From contig JBBTSZ010000002.1 in NCBI GenBank assembly GCA_038064495.1, positions 280,934 to 344,933 on the forward strand: 64,000 bases of DNA, given 5' to 3'. The DNA is from Patescibacteria group bacterium. GTDB taxonomy: Bacteria; Patescibacteriota; Minisyncoccia; Phycocordibacterales; Phycocordibacteraceae. A model generated the notes under the pieces. That model was not told where the DNA came from, did no database searches, and saw only the letters and a program-made list of their open reading frames with translations. The translations under genes were made by a program, and so were the position numbers. This document shows, in pieces, positions 13,600-37,103 of the stretch; within the stretch, counting starts at the first letter, position 1; each line of letters starts with the position of its first letter.

Positions 13600-13620
13600 T
13601 TTTTTTGCCATTCTTGAATA

Positions 13621-13654
13621 GAAAAAGGGCCGGAGTTCATCGAACTCCGGCCCT
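13621..13654 (-). terminator. terminator of paralog A (usable in both directions)
   Basis: 12-bp stem gggccggagttc/gaactccggccc with a 3-nt loop, with a T-run on the minus strand. Confidence 0.6.
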
Positions 13655-13661
13655 TCAGGCG

Positions 13662-14129
13662 TTATACCGGCTCAAGGATAGCTTCCTCGCTGTCGGCTGT
13701 CACCGTATCGACATCAATCGACCGCGTGTGCTCCTGAAGCAGGGTTTTCCAGACCGCAGTCAGATGAGCATAGGCGACTCCAACATCGCCGTCCGCGTAT
13801 TCTGGCTTTCTGGCAACATAGAAACCATAGTCACCAGCTGCCTCCTGACTAAGGCAGACCCGTTCCCGCATGCAAGAGTAGGGGGTATGGTTTGCATCCA
13901 GTTCAGCAAGCACGCGGCCCCTTCGTGTATGAGTGTATGACACGTCAAGCTGCGCAAGCATGCAGGTGATAGGACAGCCGATGTCGAGTTTGTCCACGTC
14001 GATGAATTTTTGCCAACCGTTCGGCTGTGTCCGTTCGAGAAGCGCGTAACCGCGCTTCGCTGCCTGCGTGAGCTGTCCGAAGTCAACGACTGACGACATC
14101 TTGGTCGCCACTGGTATTCCGTATTTCAT
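13662..14129 (-). CDS. paralog A of a tandem pair of unknown ~150-aa cytoplasmic proteins
   Basis: ATG preceded by GGGAGG at 5-nt spacing. Shares AAKRG..L.ER.P.GWQK.ID.D.L.IG.P.TCMLAQL and D.GF.V.R.P motifs with the neighbouring gene. Has its own terminator. Confidence 0.55.
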   Translation of the reverse strand: MKYGIPVATKMSSVVDFGQLTQAAKRGYALLERTQPNGWQKFIDVDKLDIGCPITCMLAQLDVSYTHTRRGRVLAELDANHTPYSCMRERVCLSQEAAGDYGFYVARKPEYADGDVGVAYAHLTAVWKTLLQEHTRSIDVDTVTADSEEAILEPV

Positions 14130-14147
14130 ACAAGCCTCCCATAAAAT

Positions 14148-14167
14148 CTCAGGCACCATTACCCGAG
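14148..14167 (-). promoter_or_regulatory. conserved 5' leader hairpin of paralog A
   Basis: On the minus strand the element is stem ctcggg, loop taatggtg, stem cctgag, located 25-45 nt upstream of the ATG. The equivalent hairpin upstream of paralog B has different stem sequence but the same loop core. Confidence 0.4.
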
Positions 14168-14204
14168 TGCATCTCGGACTAACGTACACCTCCCTTGAGG
14201 AATG

Positions 14205-14242
14205 TAAATAGGAAAGGGCCGACAGTTCAGAACTGTCGGCCC
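14205..14242 (-). terminator. terminator of paralog B
   Basis: Stem gggccgacagtt/aactgtcggccc with loop cag, then T-rich sequence on the minus strand. It is a sequence variant of the paralog A terminator. Confidence 0.6.
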
Positions 14243-14250
14243 CTATGGCG

Positions 14251-14682
14251 TTACGCCATTTCGAGCATGCGCTCGGACTCGGTTTCGTGTCCATCATCCG
14301 CAGCTGGTGTGAGGTCTTCTGTCAGAAGTTTCCTCCACTCTCCCGTCAAGTACTGATAGACAATTCCGTTAGGTTCGCGGGTTCCTTCGGTCGGATACCG
14401 GGAGACCGAGAAGCCGAGATCGGAACAATCCTCGTCCTTCAGGCCGAGATAGTCGCGCATAACAGCGTAACTGGGCTGTTCAGAAACCTCCTGAGTCACC
14501 GCAAGCTGGGCAAGCATGCACGTGTCCGGCCTGCCGATATTGAGCCGGTCCAGGTCGATGCCCTTCTGCCAGCCGGTCGGCATGCGCTCGTTCAGGAAAT
14601 CATGCCCACGCTTTGCTGCATTCCGAAGATACTCGCTACCGCTTACGGGCAACACATCATCATCAAGTGTTCGTAGTTTCAT
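14251..14682 (-). CDS. paralog B of the tandem pair
   Basis: ATG preceded by GGGAGG at 5-nt spacing. About 35% identity to paralog A in conserved blocks. Confidence 0.55.
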   Translation of the reverse strand: MKLRTLDDDVLPVSGSEYLRNAAKRGHDFLNERMPTGWQKGIDLDRLNIGRPDTCMLAQLAVTQEVSEQPSYAVMRDYLGLKDEDCSDLGFSVSRYPTEGTREPNGIVYQYLTGEWRKLLTEDLTPAADDGHETESERMLEMA

Positions 14683-14701
14683 CGTTACCTCCCATGTAAA
14701 T

Positions 14702-14719
14702 TCGAGCACCATTGCTCGA
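14702..14719 (-). promoter_or_regulatory. conserved 5' leader hairpin of paralog B
   Basis: On the minus strand the element is stem tcgagc, loop aatggt, stem gctcga. It covaries with the paralog A hairpin. Confidence 0.4.
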
Positions 14720-14795
14720 ATGCAGTCTGGCACTACGGTACTCCTACCGTTGAAAAAGTAAATCCTCAGGAGTTTGCACGGTATACTAGACCCTA

Positions 14796-17525
14796 ATGGA
14801 GGGCCCTCGTACACCACTCGCGTCAACAGAGGACGAGCTCGCATATTTGCGTGCAGAAGTGGCGCGCAAAGAGGCTGAGCTGGCTCATCTGAAAGAGCGT
14901 CCGAGCCGGGAGGAGATTGTACGTGACCGGTTGAAAGAGCATAAAGACGCAGATGCGTCGGTTCTTGCGAGTGAGTACAAGCTTCCCGCTACCGAAGTTG
15001 CGCAGGTGGTACTCAACCTTTCACCGGAGCAAAACGATGAGACCATTGCTGAGCTGCGGGCGGTTATGGAAGAAAAGGGTATTAAGAACGCGCTTACGGT
15101 GCTTGATGCACTCAATAACCCCCACCTGGAAGATGACTTTCATCGTTTCCTCGTGCAATACCTCCTTGCCGGGGTACCGGTGAAGGGGCTTGAAGAAGGA
15201 CAACCCGCGTGGAAGGCACTCCGCATGACGTTGTATGAGATTGCGCTCCCTGAGACAGATACCAAAACGGACCAAAATCAGAAAGTGAGAACGCTTAAGG
15301 AGTTGGTCTCTGCGATGGAGCAATTCTATTCAGGCATGCTCAGCGTTGAAAATGCAGTTAAGAATGAACCCCCGTATTTTACGCTTGAGCTTGCGGTTCC
15401 TGTAAATTCCCCGGTGCTGCAATTTTATGCGGCAGTTCCGAATAGCAAGCGCGATTTGTTTGAGAAACAACTCCTCGCGATTTTTCCAAACGCGCGTCTT
15501 ACCATTCAGCCAAACGATTACAATGTCTTTGTAGAAGATGGGACATCCTTTGGTGCTTTTGCAACGCTGAAAGACCGTCACATGCTTCCCCTGAAGCAGT
15601 ACGACGAATTTGATTACGATCCGATTAACTCTATTCTAAACGCGTTCGCAAAAATCTCAGCAGAAGGTGAAGGAGCGTCGCTTCAAATCGTGATTCAACC
15701 CGCAGGCAGTCACTACACGGACCATTACCGTCGTGTGTTGGCAGAACTTCGCAAAGGGGAGAACAGGTACCGAGCGTTCAATACCCCAGAGACCTTTGTG
15801 GGTGACCTCGCACGAGAAGCATTCGGACTCCTTAAGACTTCGCAGAAAGCGCTTGATCCATCCAAGGCTGACAAAGTCGCGATTGAACAGGTGGAGCGAA
15901 AAATTGGTTCACCTATCGTGGATACCAATATCCGCATTGTGGTTTCTTCCGAAGATGCTGTCCGTGCTGAATCCATACTTTCTGAACTTGAATCCTCGTT
16001 CAATCAGTTTGAAAATACGATTGGGAATCGGTTTGCATTCTATCGCGAGAAAGAGAAAGATAAGAAAAAGCTATTTCATAACTTTACCTTCCGTCTTGCC
16101 ACAAAGGGCAGCACACTTGCGCTCTCACTTCGTGAACTCACGACGGTGTACCATTTCCCACCGAAAGGTATTACGTCAACACCGCATCTGGCTCAGTCTC
16201 GCTTTTCTTCTGCACCGGCTCCTGCTGGTATGCCCTCTGACGGCATCGTGCTTGGTGTAAATGAGTACCGTACGGCAAAGACTGAAGTGCGGCTTTCTCC
16301 CGAAGACCGTCTGCGCCATATGTACGTGGTGGGGCAGACCGGTACCGGTAAAACGTCCTACATGAAGACCTTGATTGAGCAGGACATTAAAGACGGCAAC
16401 GGCGTGTGCTTCATTGACCCACACGGTAACGACATCTTGGACGTACTCGCCTCTATTCCGCCTTCGCGCTATGAGGACGTGATTTATTTTGACCCAGCGG
16501 AGATTTCTCGCCCGTTCGGGCTCAATTTGCTTGAGTACGATGAAGACCACCCGGAACAAAAGACCTTTATCGTAAACGAACTTCTCGCCATCTTCAGAAG
16601 ACTCTACGGAGACGTGCCGGAGTCTATGGGTCCTGCGTTTGAGCAGTACTTTAGGAACGCTACACTCCTCGTCATGGAAGACCCTGCAAGCGGTTCAACA
16701 CTCATGGATATTAGTCGCGTGCTTTCTAATAAACCATTCCGTGACTATAAACTAGGGAAGTCAAACAACCCGATTGTAAATCAGTTTTGGAAGGAGATTG
16801 CGACCCAAGCAGAGGGAGAAGCCTCTCTTGCAAACATCGTTCCGTATATCACTAACAAATTTGACGACTTCACCGCAAACGACTTTATGCGTCCGATTAT
16901 TGGACAACAGGAAAGTTCCTTCAAGTTCCGTGACGTGATTGATGGCAAGAAGATTTTGCTCGTGAATTTGTCCAAAGGACGTCTTGGCGAGAGGAACGCA
17001 AACCTTCTTGGACTTATCTTGGTTGGTAAGCTTTTCATGGCAGCACTGTCGCGAGCCGATAATCCACGAGGCGACTTCCCGCCGTTCTATCTCTATATTG
17101 ATGAGTTCCAAAACATTACGACCGATTCTATCCCTGGCATTTTGTCTGAAGCTCGTAAGTACAAACTCTCGCTCACCATTGCGCACCAGTTCTTGTCACA
17201 GGTAGATGAGAAAATCAGGAATGCCGTGTTTGGTAACGTCGGCTCCATGACCGTCTTCCGTGTCGGACAGGAGGATGCTGAATTCTTTGAAAAGCAATTT
17301 GCTCCGGTAGCGAGCGCATCCGACTTCACTTCCATTGAAAACTACAATGCGTACGTCAAACTGCTCGTGCACGGCGTACCGCAGAAGCCATTTACTATCC
17401 ACACACTTCCGCCAGTCGCTGGTCGCGAAGCGCAGGTGGACGATCTTCGTCAGCTTTCCTACCTGACCTATGGCCGCGACCGTAGGGCGGTGGAAGAAAA
17501 CATACGAGCGCGCTACCTTTCTTAA
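14796..17525 (+). CDS. TraD/VirD4-like (type IV coupling protein family, FtsK/HerA superfamily) P-loop ATPase with novel ~450-aa N-terminal domain and no TM segment
   Basis: The C-terminal half carries Walker A VVGQTGTGKTSYM, FIDPHGNDI, Walker B FYLYIDEFQN and a following TIAHQF. The N-terminal half is soluble and starts with a coiled coil (ELAYLRAEVARKEAELAHLKE), with no recognisable domain. A TATACT -10-like hexamer ends 9 nt before the ATG, so a leaderless transcript is possible. Confidence 0.75.
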   Translation: MEGPRTPLASTEDELAYLRAEVARKEAELAHLKERPSREEIVRDRLKEHKDADASVLASEYKLPATEVAQVVLNLSPEQNDETIAELRAVMEEKGIKNALTVLDALNNPHLEDDFHRFLVQYLLAGVPVKGLEEGQPAWKALRMTLYEIALPETDTKTDQNQKVRTLKELVSAMEQFYSGMLSVENAVKNEPPYFTLELAVPVNSPVLQFYAAVPNSKRDLFEKQLLAIFPNARLTIQPNDYNVFVEDGTSFGAFATLKDRHMLPLKQYDEFDYDPINSILNAFAKISAEGEGASLQIVIQPAGSHYTDHYRRVLAELRKGENRYRAFNTPETFVGDLAREAFGLLKTSQKALDPSKADKVAIEQVERKIGSPIVDTNIRIVVSSEDAVRAESILSELESSFNQFENTIGNRFAFYREKEKDKKKLFHNFTFRLATKGSTLALSLRELTTVYHFPPKGITSTPHLAQSRFSSAPAPAGMPSDGIVLGVNEYRTAKTEVRLSPEDRLRHMYVVGQTGTGKTSYMKTLIEQDIKDGNGVCFIDPHGNDILDVLASIPPSRYEDVIYFDPAEISRPFGLNLLEYDEDHPEQKTFIVNELLAIFRRLYGDVPESMGPAFEQYFRNATLLVMEDPASGSTLMDISRVLSNKPFRDYKLGKSNNPIVNQFWKEIATQAEGEASLANIVPYITNKFDDFTANDFMRPIIGQQESSFKFRDVIDGKKILLVNLSKGRLGERNANLLGLILVGKLFMAALSRADNPRGDFPPFYLYIDEFQNITTDSIPGILSEARKYKLSLTIAHQFLSQVDEKIRNAVFGNVGSMTVFRVGQEDAEFFEKQFAPVASASDFTSIENYNAYVKLLVHGVPQKPFTIHTLPPVAGREAQVDDLRQLSYLTYGRDRRAVEENIRARYLS

Positions 17526-36506: not shown

Positions 36507-36608
36507 GAAAATGTGTTGGTCTGGATTGAATCAAGGAAGTTCTAAGATCCCAGAAACCTCTCTTGAGATAGAACTTTTACATATGAGGTAGTTGAGTATA
36601 ATTATCAC

Positions 36609-37103
36609 ATGAATATGGAAGCAGCAGGAGGCAGGCGAAATCTCGAAAAGCGTGAGTCAGAAGAGGCAGAACCTTCTCTTCCGACCGACCCAATTGAGGC
36701 AGCGGCTTGGCTAGAAGAAATTTGGAAGGGAGGCGGGGGATGGGAGGGCCAGCATCCGTTGCGGTTAAAAGTGAAAGATCCCAAAGACTATCAAGAATTG
36801 TCAGAAGAAGAAAAGAAAGAATTTAATAAACTAGGGAAGCAATTTACATGGCTCGCTGAAATGCATCGTTCAGAGATGTCGTGGTCACAATCATATGCTC
36901 ATACTAATTACGGTGAGGTAGTCGGCTTTCGCTTTGGCTATGAGACACCGGAAAATCCTGAGGACGATATTCCGGAAGCGTACATCTATCGTCCTTTTGA
37001 TGAAAAGCAGCCTAAAGTTTTCGTAAGTAGGGCGAGTAATGGGTGGAAAGTAGAGCCTCTGGAAGCGGTGGCAGAAAGCTACGCAAAGAATTTTGACTAC
37101 TAG
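36609..37103 (+). CDS. hypothetical acidic protein
   Basis: 164 aa with no recognisable domain. Downstream of the KAP NTPase. Confidence 0.4.
   Translation: MNMEAAGGRRNLEKRESEEAEPSLPTDPIEAAAWLEEIWKGGGGWEGQHPLRLKVKDPKDYQELSEEEKKEFNKLGKQFTWLAEMHRSEMSWSQSYAHTNYGEVVGFRFGYETPENPEDDIPEAYIYRPFDEKQPKVFVSRASNGWKVEPLEAVAESYAKNFDY

What the first reader, a model, noticed from the sequence alone, without database searches (positions are those of the whole stretch)
13619..14790. Tandem duplication of a complete promoter/leader/gene/terminator unit encoding two divergent ~150-aa paralogs with a covarying 5' leader hairpin
Two adjacent minus-strand genes (13662-14129 and 14251-14682) encode paralogs. They share blocks AAKRG(Y/H)..L.ER.P.GWQK.ID.D.L.IG.P.TCMLAQL and D.GF.V.R.P, but are otherwise diverged (~35% identity in the conserved blocks). 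Each has its own GGGAGG SD at 5-nt spacing. Each has its own terminator with the same stem family (gggccggagttc.. versus gggccgacagtt..). Each has a conserved ~70-nt leader carrying a promoter-like TTTAC(A/T)-N17-(t)AC(C)GT(T)AGT element and a hairpin whose stems differ but stay complementary (A: ctcggg/cctgag; B: tcgagc/gctcga) around a conserved AATGGTG loop. That covariation argues the hairpin is functional RNA structure and not merely unresolved duplication. Both leaders also carry an in-frame ATG GTG 10 codons upstream of the SD-preceded start. This explains the longer tracker ORFs and could be a tiny upstream reading frame. I do not recognise the protein family; it is Cys-containing, cytoplasmic, with no signal peptide. 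Arrays of diverged small paralogs next to an ATPase operon resemble immunity or adaptor gene arrays.
Basis: seen in the sequence. Interest (0 to 1): 0.7.

Follow-up and report, generated by a model that had tools for sequence, protein, structure and literature searches.

The report
Duplicated phage-type gene cassette, shared leader hairpin
Two neighbouring small genes in a groundwater Patescibacteria genome are old copies of one self-contained expression unit that still share a short RNA hairpin in the leader, and their proteins belong to a large, unnamed family found mainly in phages, so this is a tidy but fairly ordinary case of co-regulated paralogs of unknown function.

Summary
Genes A (14129..13662, 155 aa) and B (14682..14251, 143 aa) are paralogs: 41% identity, E=2e-25. 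Each has a weak sigma-70-like -35/-10, a roughly 45-nt leader, GGGAGG-N5-ATG and a strong intrinsic terminator. The non-coding parts are better conserved (53/80 leader columns) than near-saturated synonymous sites (46%). Both leaders fold into the same in-register 8-9 bp hairpin with an AUGG tetraloop, 7 nt upstream of the SD. All six stem differences are transitions that keep pairing, two of them double compensatory. With only two copies this is moderate evidence for RNA structure, not proof. No third copy exists in about 78 kb of this genome or in IMG/VR. My genome and metagenome scans used a mis-spaced pattern and are void. The proteins belong to a mostly acidic, all-alpha, roughly 100-aa family with over 300 metagenomic members. 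It also occurs in Streptomyces phages and prophages. It is absent from Pfam, NCBIfam, PHROGs and PADLOC, and has no convincing structural neighbour. Nothing supports the immunity or adaptor-array idea. The "upstream reading frame" is an in-frame ATG inside the hairpin loop. Verdict: a real, moron-like duplicated cassette with a probably functional shared 5'-UTR hairpin. Interest is modest.

The parts
13662..14129 (-). Gene A CDS, 155 aa (NCBI AAB472_01820, P0001). It is a member of an unannotated, phage-associated all-alpha family.
   Evidence: A profile built without A and B scores it at 105 bits. AF2 model pLDDT is 87.5.
14251..14682 (-). Gene B CDS, 143 aa from the SD-preceded ATG. NCBI annotates 153 aa from the loop ATG (AAB472_01825, P0002).
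   Evidence: A profile built without A and B scores it at 109 bits.
13624..13656 (-). Intrinsic terminator of gene A: 15-bp stem, GAT loop, T tract.
   Evidence: The outer stem GGGCCG/CGGCCC is shared with terminator B, and the inner stem differs on both arms.
14214..14244 (-). Intrinsic terminator of gene B: 14-bp stem, CTG loop, T tract. The T tract runs into the -35 of gene A.
14181..14208 (-). Promoter-like element of A: TTTACA (14208..14203), 16-nt spacer, TACGTT (14186..14181).
   Evidence: Read from the sequence. It is conserved with B. It falls below the consensus scan's threshold, with only 3 of 6 matches in the -10. No TSS data exist.
14148..14167 (-). Leader hairpin A: CUCGGGUA / AUGG / UGCCUGAG. 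It has 8 bp including two G-U pairs, and dG is -10.6 kcal/mol.
   Evidence: z = -2.7 when folded from the predicted TSS at 14174.
14130..14147 (-). A/U-rich spacer AUUUUAU, SD GGGAGG (14140..14135) and the 5-nt spacer before the ATG at 14129.
14735..14762 (-). Promoter-like element of B: TTTACT (14762..14757), 16-nt spacer, TACCGT (14740..14735). It lies back to back with the upstream region of the divergent ATPase gene.
14700..14721 (-). Leader hairpin B: (A)UUCGAGCA / AUGG / UGCUCGAA(U). It has 8 bp plus one more, and dG is -11.6 kcal/mol.
   Evidence: z = -3.4.
14683..14699 (-). Spacer UUACAU, SD GGGAGG (14693..14688) and the 5-nt spacer before the ATG at 14682.

Best explanation
This is an old tandem duplication, or tandem insertion, of a self-contained, moron-like expression cassette. 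Each cassette runs from a weak sigma-70-type promoter through a roughly 45-nt 5' UTR and a strong SD to the CDS and an intrinsic terminator.

The cassettes encode two intact members of a phage-associated, mostly acidic, all-alpha domain family of about 100 aa whose biochemical function is unknown.

Selection has kept the regulatory parts alike, so the two monocistronic genes are probably expressed together. The shared 8-9 bp hairpin has an invariant AUGG tetraloop and sits 7 nt upstream of the SD. It probably acts in cis at the RNA level, as an mRNA-stabilising or translation-setting 5' stem-loop, or as the docking site of a common trans-acting factor.

The proteins probably work together. This is inferred from family members that fuse 2 to 5 copies of the domain in one chain.

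**Shown:** paralogy, the duplicated architecture, excess non-coding conservation, in-register pairing with compensatory changes, family membership, and the phage or prophage distribution of the family.

**Inferred:** the promoter and TSS, the RNA-level function of the hairpin, co-regulation, and joint action of A and B.
For: - **Paralogy and architecture:**
- **Non-coding conservation:** the leader shares 53 of 80 columns, against 23 of 50 identical synonymous codons (p=0.03) and 41% third-position identity (p=0.0004). The longest identical runs are 8 nt, so recent gene conversion is unlikely.
- **Hairpin pairing:** 8 of 8 pairs hold in both copies, with 2 double compensatory and 2 G-U-compatible changes. 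Sliding the register drops pairing to 50% or less.
- **Substitution pattern:** stem differences are 6 transitions and 0 transversions, against 5:15 in the rest of the leader (p=0.002). Six random substitutions would keep all pairs only about 0.2% of the time.
- **Strand:** the G-U pairs exist only on the sense strand.
- **Folding:** the same hairpin is the MFE fold of both leaders from the predicted TSS, with z = -2.7 and -3.4.
- **Positive control:** the terminators also differ on both arms yet still pair.
- **Family membership:**
- **Phage or prophage contexts:**
- **Multi-repeat members:**
- **Composition:** the cassette has GC 54% and GC3 60-62%, against 49.5% for the window and GC3 52-53% in neighbours.
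Against: - Only two copies exist. The shuffle control has no power. If only transitions are allowed, about 10% of random outcomes keep all pairs.
- The hairpin was picked after the sequence had been read, so the test is post hoc.
- The -10 hexamers match only 3 of 6 positions and fail the consensus scan, whereas other genes in the window have canonical TTGACA/TATAAT-like promoters.
- With upstream sequence included, leader A prefers an alternative hairpin, CCGAG/CUCGG.
- No further copy was found in the window, in about 14-15 kb of flanks, in family loci, or in IMG/VR.
- There is no prophage around the locus.
Confidence: 0.55

Rival explanations
1. The hairpin is a leader attenuator, meaning a weak intrinsic terminator followed by a U-rich tract. 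It would stop most transcripts before the SD unless a factor prevents it from forming.
For: The consensus scan flags the A hairpin as terminator-like: 8 bp followed by ATTTTAT. Both hairpins have dG of about -11 kcal/mol and are followed by AUUUUAU or UUUACAU.
Against: - The B hairpin is not flagged by the scan, and its tract UUUACAU is poor.
- Weak terminator-like sites of this class occur at chance frequency in the region: 26 found against 20.5 +/- 4.2 expected.
- The genes' real terminators are far stronger, at 14-15 bp.
- The only alternative 'antiterminator' pairing exists in A alone.
- The only short leader ORF, MHSGNGA*, exists in A alone.
Confidence: 0.13
2. The 3' half of the 'leader' is coding. 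Translation would start at the ATG in the hairpin loop, as public annotations have it, giving proteins of 165 and 153 aa. The conservation would then reflect a conserved N-terminal peptide MV.E..WE..M.
For: The ATG GTG is in frame, with no stop, in both copies. NCBI calls B from this ATG at 153 aa. Other gene callers use it for both genes, giving 153 and 165 aa.
Against: - There is no SD upstream of the loop ATG, while GGGAGG-N5-ATG marks the downstream start in both copies.
- The ATG lies in a tight tetraloop of a hairpin with dG of about -11 kcal/mol.
- The 10 codons differ 3/4/4 by codon position, so there is no third-position excess.
- The conserved letters are explained by the stem, the loop and the SD.
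- Homologs have no conserved N-terminal extension.
- NCBI itself starts A at the SD-preceded ATG.
Confidence: 0.1
3. The inverted repeat is a DNA operator for a dimeric repressor that sits just downstream of the promoter of both genes, rather than an RNA structure.
For: B carries a perfect 8-bp inverted repeat with a 4-bp spacer, a typical operator size, at about +8 to +28 from the predicted start. The sequence, not only the pairing, is conserved in the loop and in half of the stem.
Against: - In A the repeat is only 6 of 8 symmetric at the DNA level, because two pairs are G-U.
- The two double changes are symmetric. RNA pairing predicts this, but two sites bound by one protein do not.
- The invariant centre ATGG is not palindromic.
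Confidence: 0.1
4. The similarity has no function. It would be residual similarity from the duplication, or patchy gene conversion, and the pairing would be preserved by chance.
For: There are only two sequences, and about 10% of transitions-only outcomes keep all pairs. A CDS block also shows local excess synonymous identity, with 11 of 14 codons identical. This could mean patchy conversion.
Against: Synonymous sites overall are near saturation at 46%, while the leader is 66% identical with differences scattered along it. The stem has a 6:0 transition bias against 5:15 in the flanks (p=0.002). The spacing of every element is kept exactly except for one 1-nt indel.
Confidence: 0.1

Closest known systems
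Phage 'morons': independent promoter-gene-terminator units carried in phage and prophage genomes (from my own knowledge of the lambdoid and HK97/HK022 literature; not checked against papers here)
   Same: Each gene is a self-contained unit with its own promoter-like element and a strong factor-independent terminator. Both are on the opposite strand to most neighbours and have somewhat higher GC than the flanks. Their protein family is mostly phage- or prophage-borne.
   Different: No prophage surrounds the locus. The neighbours are a Na/Ca exchanger, a DUF360/holin-like membrane protein, an ECF sigma factor, a VirD4/HerA-like ATPase, TGT and UvrB. There are two diverged copies in tandem with conserved regulatory RNA, which is not part of the moron definition.
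5'-UTR stem-loops that stabilise mRNA or set translation, such as the E. coli ompA 5' hairpin and the B. subtilis aprE leader (from my own knowledge)
   Same: A stable hairpin lies near the predicted 5' end and a few nucleotides upstream of a strong SD, which stays unpaired.
   Different: The TSS is only predicted, and about 7 unpaired nucleotides would precede the stem. The loop and half of the stem are conserved in sequence. This hints at specific recognition rather than a generic protective structure. No experimental data exist.
Hypothetical proteins of Streptomyces phages (Beephvirinae/Flowerpowervirus: Dennebes gp88, FlowerPower gp83 and relatives) and many metagenomic phage-like contigs
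   Same: They share the same roughly 100-aa all-alpha domain. Its motif is G..LD...PGW...IDL..L......C.LGQL ... GF ... L..W.
   Different: A and B have no direct tblastn hit in phages, so the link runs through the profile. In the loci examined, the phage or prophage copies are single genes inside early or replication gene strings without this leader. None has a known function.
Leader-terminator attenuators, such as those of the trp and pyr operons (from my own knowledge)
   Same: A hairpin followed by a U-rich tract lies between the promoter and the SD.
   Different: There is no conserved antiterminator or leader peptide. The stem and the U tract are weak relative to the genes' true terminators.

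Membership tests
Unannotated phage-associated all-alpha domain family (Dennebes gp88-like) | Full-length match to a profile built from other members | tested here: met
   An HMM built from 127 members without A and B scores A at 105 bits and B at 109 bits across the whole domain. The profile built from A and B recovers 204 representatives at E<=1e-3. The family profile recovers 329 clusters.
Unannotated phage-associated all-alpha domain family (Dennebes gp88-like) | The (near-)invariant residues: Gly in helix 1, Trp of PGW, Cys-x3-Gln at a helix start, the Gly-Phe pair, and the C-terminal Leu-x3-Trp | tested here: met
   Both A and B carry G27, W39, C56, Q60, G102-F103, L123 and W127 in A numbering.
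Unannotated phage-associated all-alpha domain family (Dennebes gp88-like) | Location in a phage or prophage early/replication gene string | tested here: not met
   The locus is flanked by cellular genes. One other member, in L126, is also chromosomal.
Any curated protein family (Pfam-A, NCBIfam, PHROGs, PADLOC) or solved structure | A significant profile or fold match | tested here: not met
   [not shown]
Phage moron | The gene is flanked by its own promoter and its own factor-independent terminator | tested here: inconclusive
   The terminators are clear. The promoters are only promoter-like, with a 3 of 6 match in the -10 and no TSS data.
Phage moron | Insertion between genes of a phage or prophage | tested here: not met
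   No phage genes were found in the surrounding 20 kb.
Known RNA family (Rfam 15) | A covariance-model match at or near the gathering score | tested here: not met
   The best E-values are 0.26-5.7, all far below the gathering scores, and none falls on the leader hairpins. The whole window yields only 2 tRNAs.
Structured cis-regulatory RNA (generic) | Base pairs maintained through compensatory substitutions across independent sequences | tested here: inconclusive
   All 8 pairs hold in both copies, with 2 double and 2 single compatible changes, and the pairing is register-specific. But n=2, so chance ranges from about 0.2% (random substitutions) to about 10% (transitions only).
Leader attenuator (intrinsic terminator in the 5' UTR) | A terminator hairpin with a U tract plus a conserved mutually exclusive antiterminator or a leader peptide | tested here: not met
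   A weak hairpin with a U-rich tract is present. The alternative pairing and the short ORF occur only in copy A.
Immunity, adaptor or defence gene array linked to an ATPase | Co-oriented operon linkage with the ATPase or a toxin, plus recognisable defence or immunity families | tested here: not met
   The ATPase is divergently transcribed. It matches VirD4/TraD/HerA-like models only weakly. The small proteins have no PADLOC match. In the loci examined, homologs elsewhere are not next to such ATPases.

The most novel reading that the evidence does not exclude
The two cassettes are domesticated phage counter-defence or host-takeover proteins. They are acidic helical domains whose weak structural echoes include Cas11/Cmr5-type small subunits. 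They would act as a heterodimer in a CPR bacterium. Their invariant AUGG-tetraloop hairpin, together with the second AUGG overlapping the SD 17 nt downstream, would be a new lineage-specific RNA operator for a dedicated post-transcriptional regulator.
Probability: 0.07. Interest if true: 0.6.

Novelty: new member of a known kind. Interest (0 to 1): 0.3.

Why it matters
If the hairpin is functional, it would be a rare, cleanly delimited example of a cis-regulatory 5'-UTR element in Patescibacteria, where almost nothing is known about gene regulation. Its two natural 'compensatory mutants' sit side by side and are ready for reporter tests.

The protein result may be the more useful one. The two genes tie a CPR genome to a sizeable, mostly phage-borne domain family with invariant Gly, Trp, Cys, Gln and Gly-Phe residues. 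The family has no entry in Pfam, NCBIfam, PHROGs or PADLOC and no structural neighbour, so it deserves a family definition and a functional test in a tractable Streptomyces phage.

The work also flags inconsistent start-codon annotation of the two paralogs in public records.

Tried and rejected
1. **Void collection scans.** The scans for the leader (viral; genome contigs; metagenome contigs) used patterns with one N too many between AATGGTG and the SD. I proved this on the window. Their hits are chance matches and say nothing about distribution.
2. **Corrected viral scan.** The corrected pattern gave 74 loci. None has both a full hairpin and a family gene.
3. **Covariance model.** Model R1 found no third copy in the window, in six family loci, or in about 14-15 kb of extra flanks of the same genome.
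4. **Regulon promoter.** The motif TTTAC-N17-TACNNTAGT has no further matches above chance. The nearby ECF sigma gene has no similar upstream sequence.
5. **Population variation.** Two other assemblies of the same organism are identical over 7.9-10.5 kb.
7. **Function from domain fusions.** Nothing informative turned up.
8. **Plasmids.** There were no hits.
9. **Autoregulation by RNA binding of A or B.** This is disfavoured because the proteins are acidic, with pI 5.3 and 4.6 against a family median of 5.0.
10. **Literature.** Nothing on DUF8128 and nothing relevant on Patescibacteria promoters or TSS.
Full report
**Source.** The window comes from a groundwater Patescibacteria MAG (NCBI locus tags AAB472_01820 and AAB472_01825; contig 565,823 bp). 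The same sequence appears in Hainich H41 assemblies and is identical over 7.9-10.5 kb.

**Observation.** On the minus strand, gene A (14129..13662, 155 aa) and gene B (14682..14251, 143 aa) are clear paralogs. BLASTP gives 41% identity over 115 aa with E=2e-25, and the quoted blocks are present.
- Each gene has GGGAGG 5 nt before its ATG.
- Each is followed by a long GC-rich hairpin plus a T tract, at 13656..13624 and 14244..14214. These are the two strongest terminator-like sites in the first 20 kb.
- The stop-codon context TAACGCC and the outer stem GGGCCG/CGGCCC are shared. The inner stems differ on both arms yet still pair.
- Upstream, both genes carry TTTAC(A/T), a 16-nt spacer, TAC(GT/CG)T, and then a leader that aligns with a single 1-nt indel.
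- The combined motif occurs exactly twice in the window against 0.00 expected.

**Age and constraint.** Among identical amino acids, only 23 of 50 codons are identical, and third positions are 41% identical, so neutral sites are near saturation. The 80 columns from -35 to the ATG are 66% identical (p=0.03 and 0.0004). No identical run exceeds 8 nt, which argues against recent gene conversion. The regulatory DNA or RNA is therefore under selection.

**The hairpin.** In register, both leaders form the same helix.
- A is CUCGGGUA-AUGG-UGCCUGAG and B is UUCGAGCA-AUGG-UGCUCGAA. B has a ninth pair.
- All 8 pairs are standard in both copies. Two changed on both sides (C-G/U-A and G-C/A-U), two changed on one side through G-U, and four are invariant.
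- Sliding the partner strand by 1-3 nt drops pairing to 50% or less.
- When folded from the predicted starts (A 14174, B 14728), this is the MFE and centroid structure of both leaders. dG is -10.6 and -11.6 kcal/mol, with z = -2.7 and -3.4, and the SD is left free.
- With more upstream sequence, copy A prefers a competing CCGAG/CUCGG stem that has no counterpart in B.
- The six stem differences are all transitions, against 5 transitions and 15 transversions in the rest of the leader (p=0.002) and 76:119 in the CDS.
- Six random substitutions would keep 8 of 8 pairs about 0.2% of the time. If only transitions are allowed, the figure is about 10%.
- The G-U pairs favour the sense-strand RNA over a DNA palindrome.

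This is moderate evidence. With two sequences the shuffle control is powerless (111 of 500).

**The upstream ATG GTG.** It lies in the tetraloop and 3' arm, in frame, with no stop before the main ATG. It would therefore be a 10-residue extension rather than a small ORF.
- It has no SD.
- Its 10 codons differ 3/4/4 by codon position.
- Homologs show no conserved N-terminal extension.
- Public annotations are inconsistent. NCBI starts A at the SD-preceded ATG and B at the loop ATG, while other gene callers use the loop ATG for both.

**Search for more copies.**
- Rfam has nothing.
- A covariance model of the two leaders finds only themselves in the window (74 and 71 bits; next best 12 bits). It finds nothing in six loci that carry family members, or in about 14-15 kb of extra flanks of the same genome.
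- A corrected loop-plus-SD pattern finds only chance matches in IMG/VR.
- My genome contigs and metagenome-contig scans, and the first viral scan, were mis-spaced by one base and are void.

**The proteins.**
- Word-based searches found only the two genes themselves.
- A full HMMER scan with the A+B profile found 204 representatives at E<=1e-3. Most are 95-140 aa, and some carry 2-5 repeats of the domain.
- A family profile recovers 329 clusters, nearly all metagenomic. Several lie on 44-50 kb contigs.
- A profile built without A and B scores them at 105 and 109 bits.
- Members occur in 28 Streptomyces phage records and in one 595-kb uncultured-phage record. In Dennebes the gene lies near an ArdA-like gene.
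- They sit in phage-like early or replication strings and prophages next to PDDEXK, RNA ligase, ERF/YqaJ, Prim-Pol, HNH and Dam genes, and once in a chromosomal setting. In the loci examined they are always single copy and never have this leader.
- No Pfam, NCBIfam, PHROGs, PADLOC or PDB-sequence match exists.
- The family is mostly acidic. Median pI is 5.0, A is 5.3 and B is 4.6. This argues against the proteins binding their own leader RNA.

**Context.**
- The flanks are cellular: an ECF sigma factor with DUF5667, a Na/Ca exchanger and a DUF360/holin-4 membrane protein on one side. On the other side are a divergent 909-aa DUF8128/DUF87/TraG-like ATPase (weak VirD4/TraD/HerA and mad8 matches), a Pro-rich 492-aa protein, FKBP, TGT and UvrB.
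- No integrase or phage genes are nearby.
- The cassette is slightly GC-richer, at 54% against 49.5% for the window, with GC3 60-62% against 52-53% in neighbours.
- Nothing supports an immunity or adaptor array.

**Interpretation.**
- The best reading is a duplicated (or twice-inserted) moron-like cassette of a phage-type accessory gene whose promoter, 5'-UTR hairpin and terminator have been kept alike by selection. This would give coordinated expression of two paralogs that probably act together.
- The hairpin most likely works as RNA in cis, either for stability or translation setting, or as a factor-binding site.
- The rivals are a weak attenuator, an N-terminal coding extension, a DNA operator, or chance. 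Each is less well supported but none is excluded.
- The promoter assignment is weak, because the -10 matches 3 of 6 positions while other genes in the window have canonical promoters.

**Verdict.** The finding is real and neatly organised, but it is ordinary in kind. Its value lies in a testable CPR leader element and in exposing an undescribed phage-borne protein family.

Noticed in passing
window 14682-14712 and 14129-14159 (- strand): Public start-codon calls for the two paralogs are inconsistent. NCBI starts A at the SD-preceded ATG (155 aa) but starts B at the ATG inside the leader hairpin loop (153 aa). Other gene callers use the loop ATG for both, giving 165 and 153 aa.
   Followed up: yes
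window 13946-13964 and 14502-14520 (- strand): Inside the CDS the block TGCATGCTTGC(G/C)CAGCTTG is 18 of 19 identical between the paralogs. In the surrounding I-D..D..L..I-G...C-M-L-A-Q-L-.-V block, 11 of 14 codons for conserved residues are identical, against 12 of 36 elsewhere (Fisher p=0.005). This could be patchy gene conversion, codon-level constraint or RNA-level constraint.
   Followed up: partly
window 14757-14798 (+ strand): The divergent 909-aa ATPase gene (ATG at 14796) has no SD. It does have a good -10-like TATACT at 14782-14787, 8 nt before the ATG, so it may be translated from a leaderless mRNA. Its -35 region would overlap the -35 of gene B on the other strand.
   Followed up: partly
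window 14145-14173 (- strand): Leader A alone contains a 7-codon ORF (ATG CAC TCG GGT AAT GGT GCC TGA, MHSGNGA*) that spans the hairpin. It also has an alternative CCGAG/CUCGG stem. In B the equivalent start is CTG and the alternative stem is absent.
   Followed up: yes
window 13605-13625 (- strand): After terminator A, the sequence CTATTCAAG resembles the start of the A promoter region that follows terminator B (CTATTTACATTCCTCAAG). It may be a truncated remnant of the repeat-unit boundary or of a lost third unit.
   Followed up: no
[not shown]
   Followed up: no
proteins P0003, P0005, P0006, P0009, P0012, P0016, P0021: Several family members fuse 2 to 5 copies of the domain in one polypeptide. 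In the AF2 model of P0021, the last helix of repeat 1 runs straight into the first helix of repeat 2 as one helix spanning residues 83-126.
   Followed up: partly
L130 18019-19365 (same genome, beyond the 3' end of the window): A second DUF8128 protein of 448 aa is encoded about 65 kb from the 909-aa DUF8128/DUF87 ATPase. No paper in the library mentions DUF8128.
   Followed up: no
window 36560-36611 (+ strand): Upstream of the 164-aa ORF at 36609 there is TTTACA, a spacer of about 15 nt, and TATAAT only 6 nt before the ATG. This is another candidate leaderless transcript in this genome.
   Followed up: no
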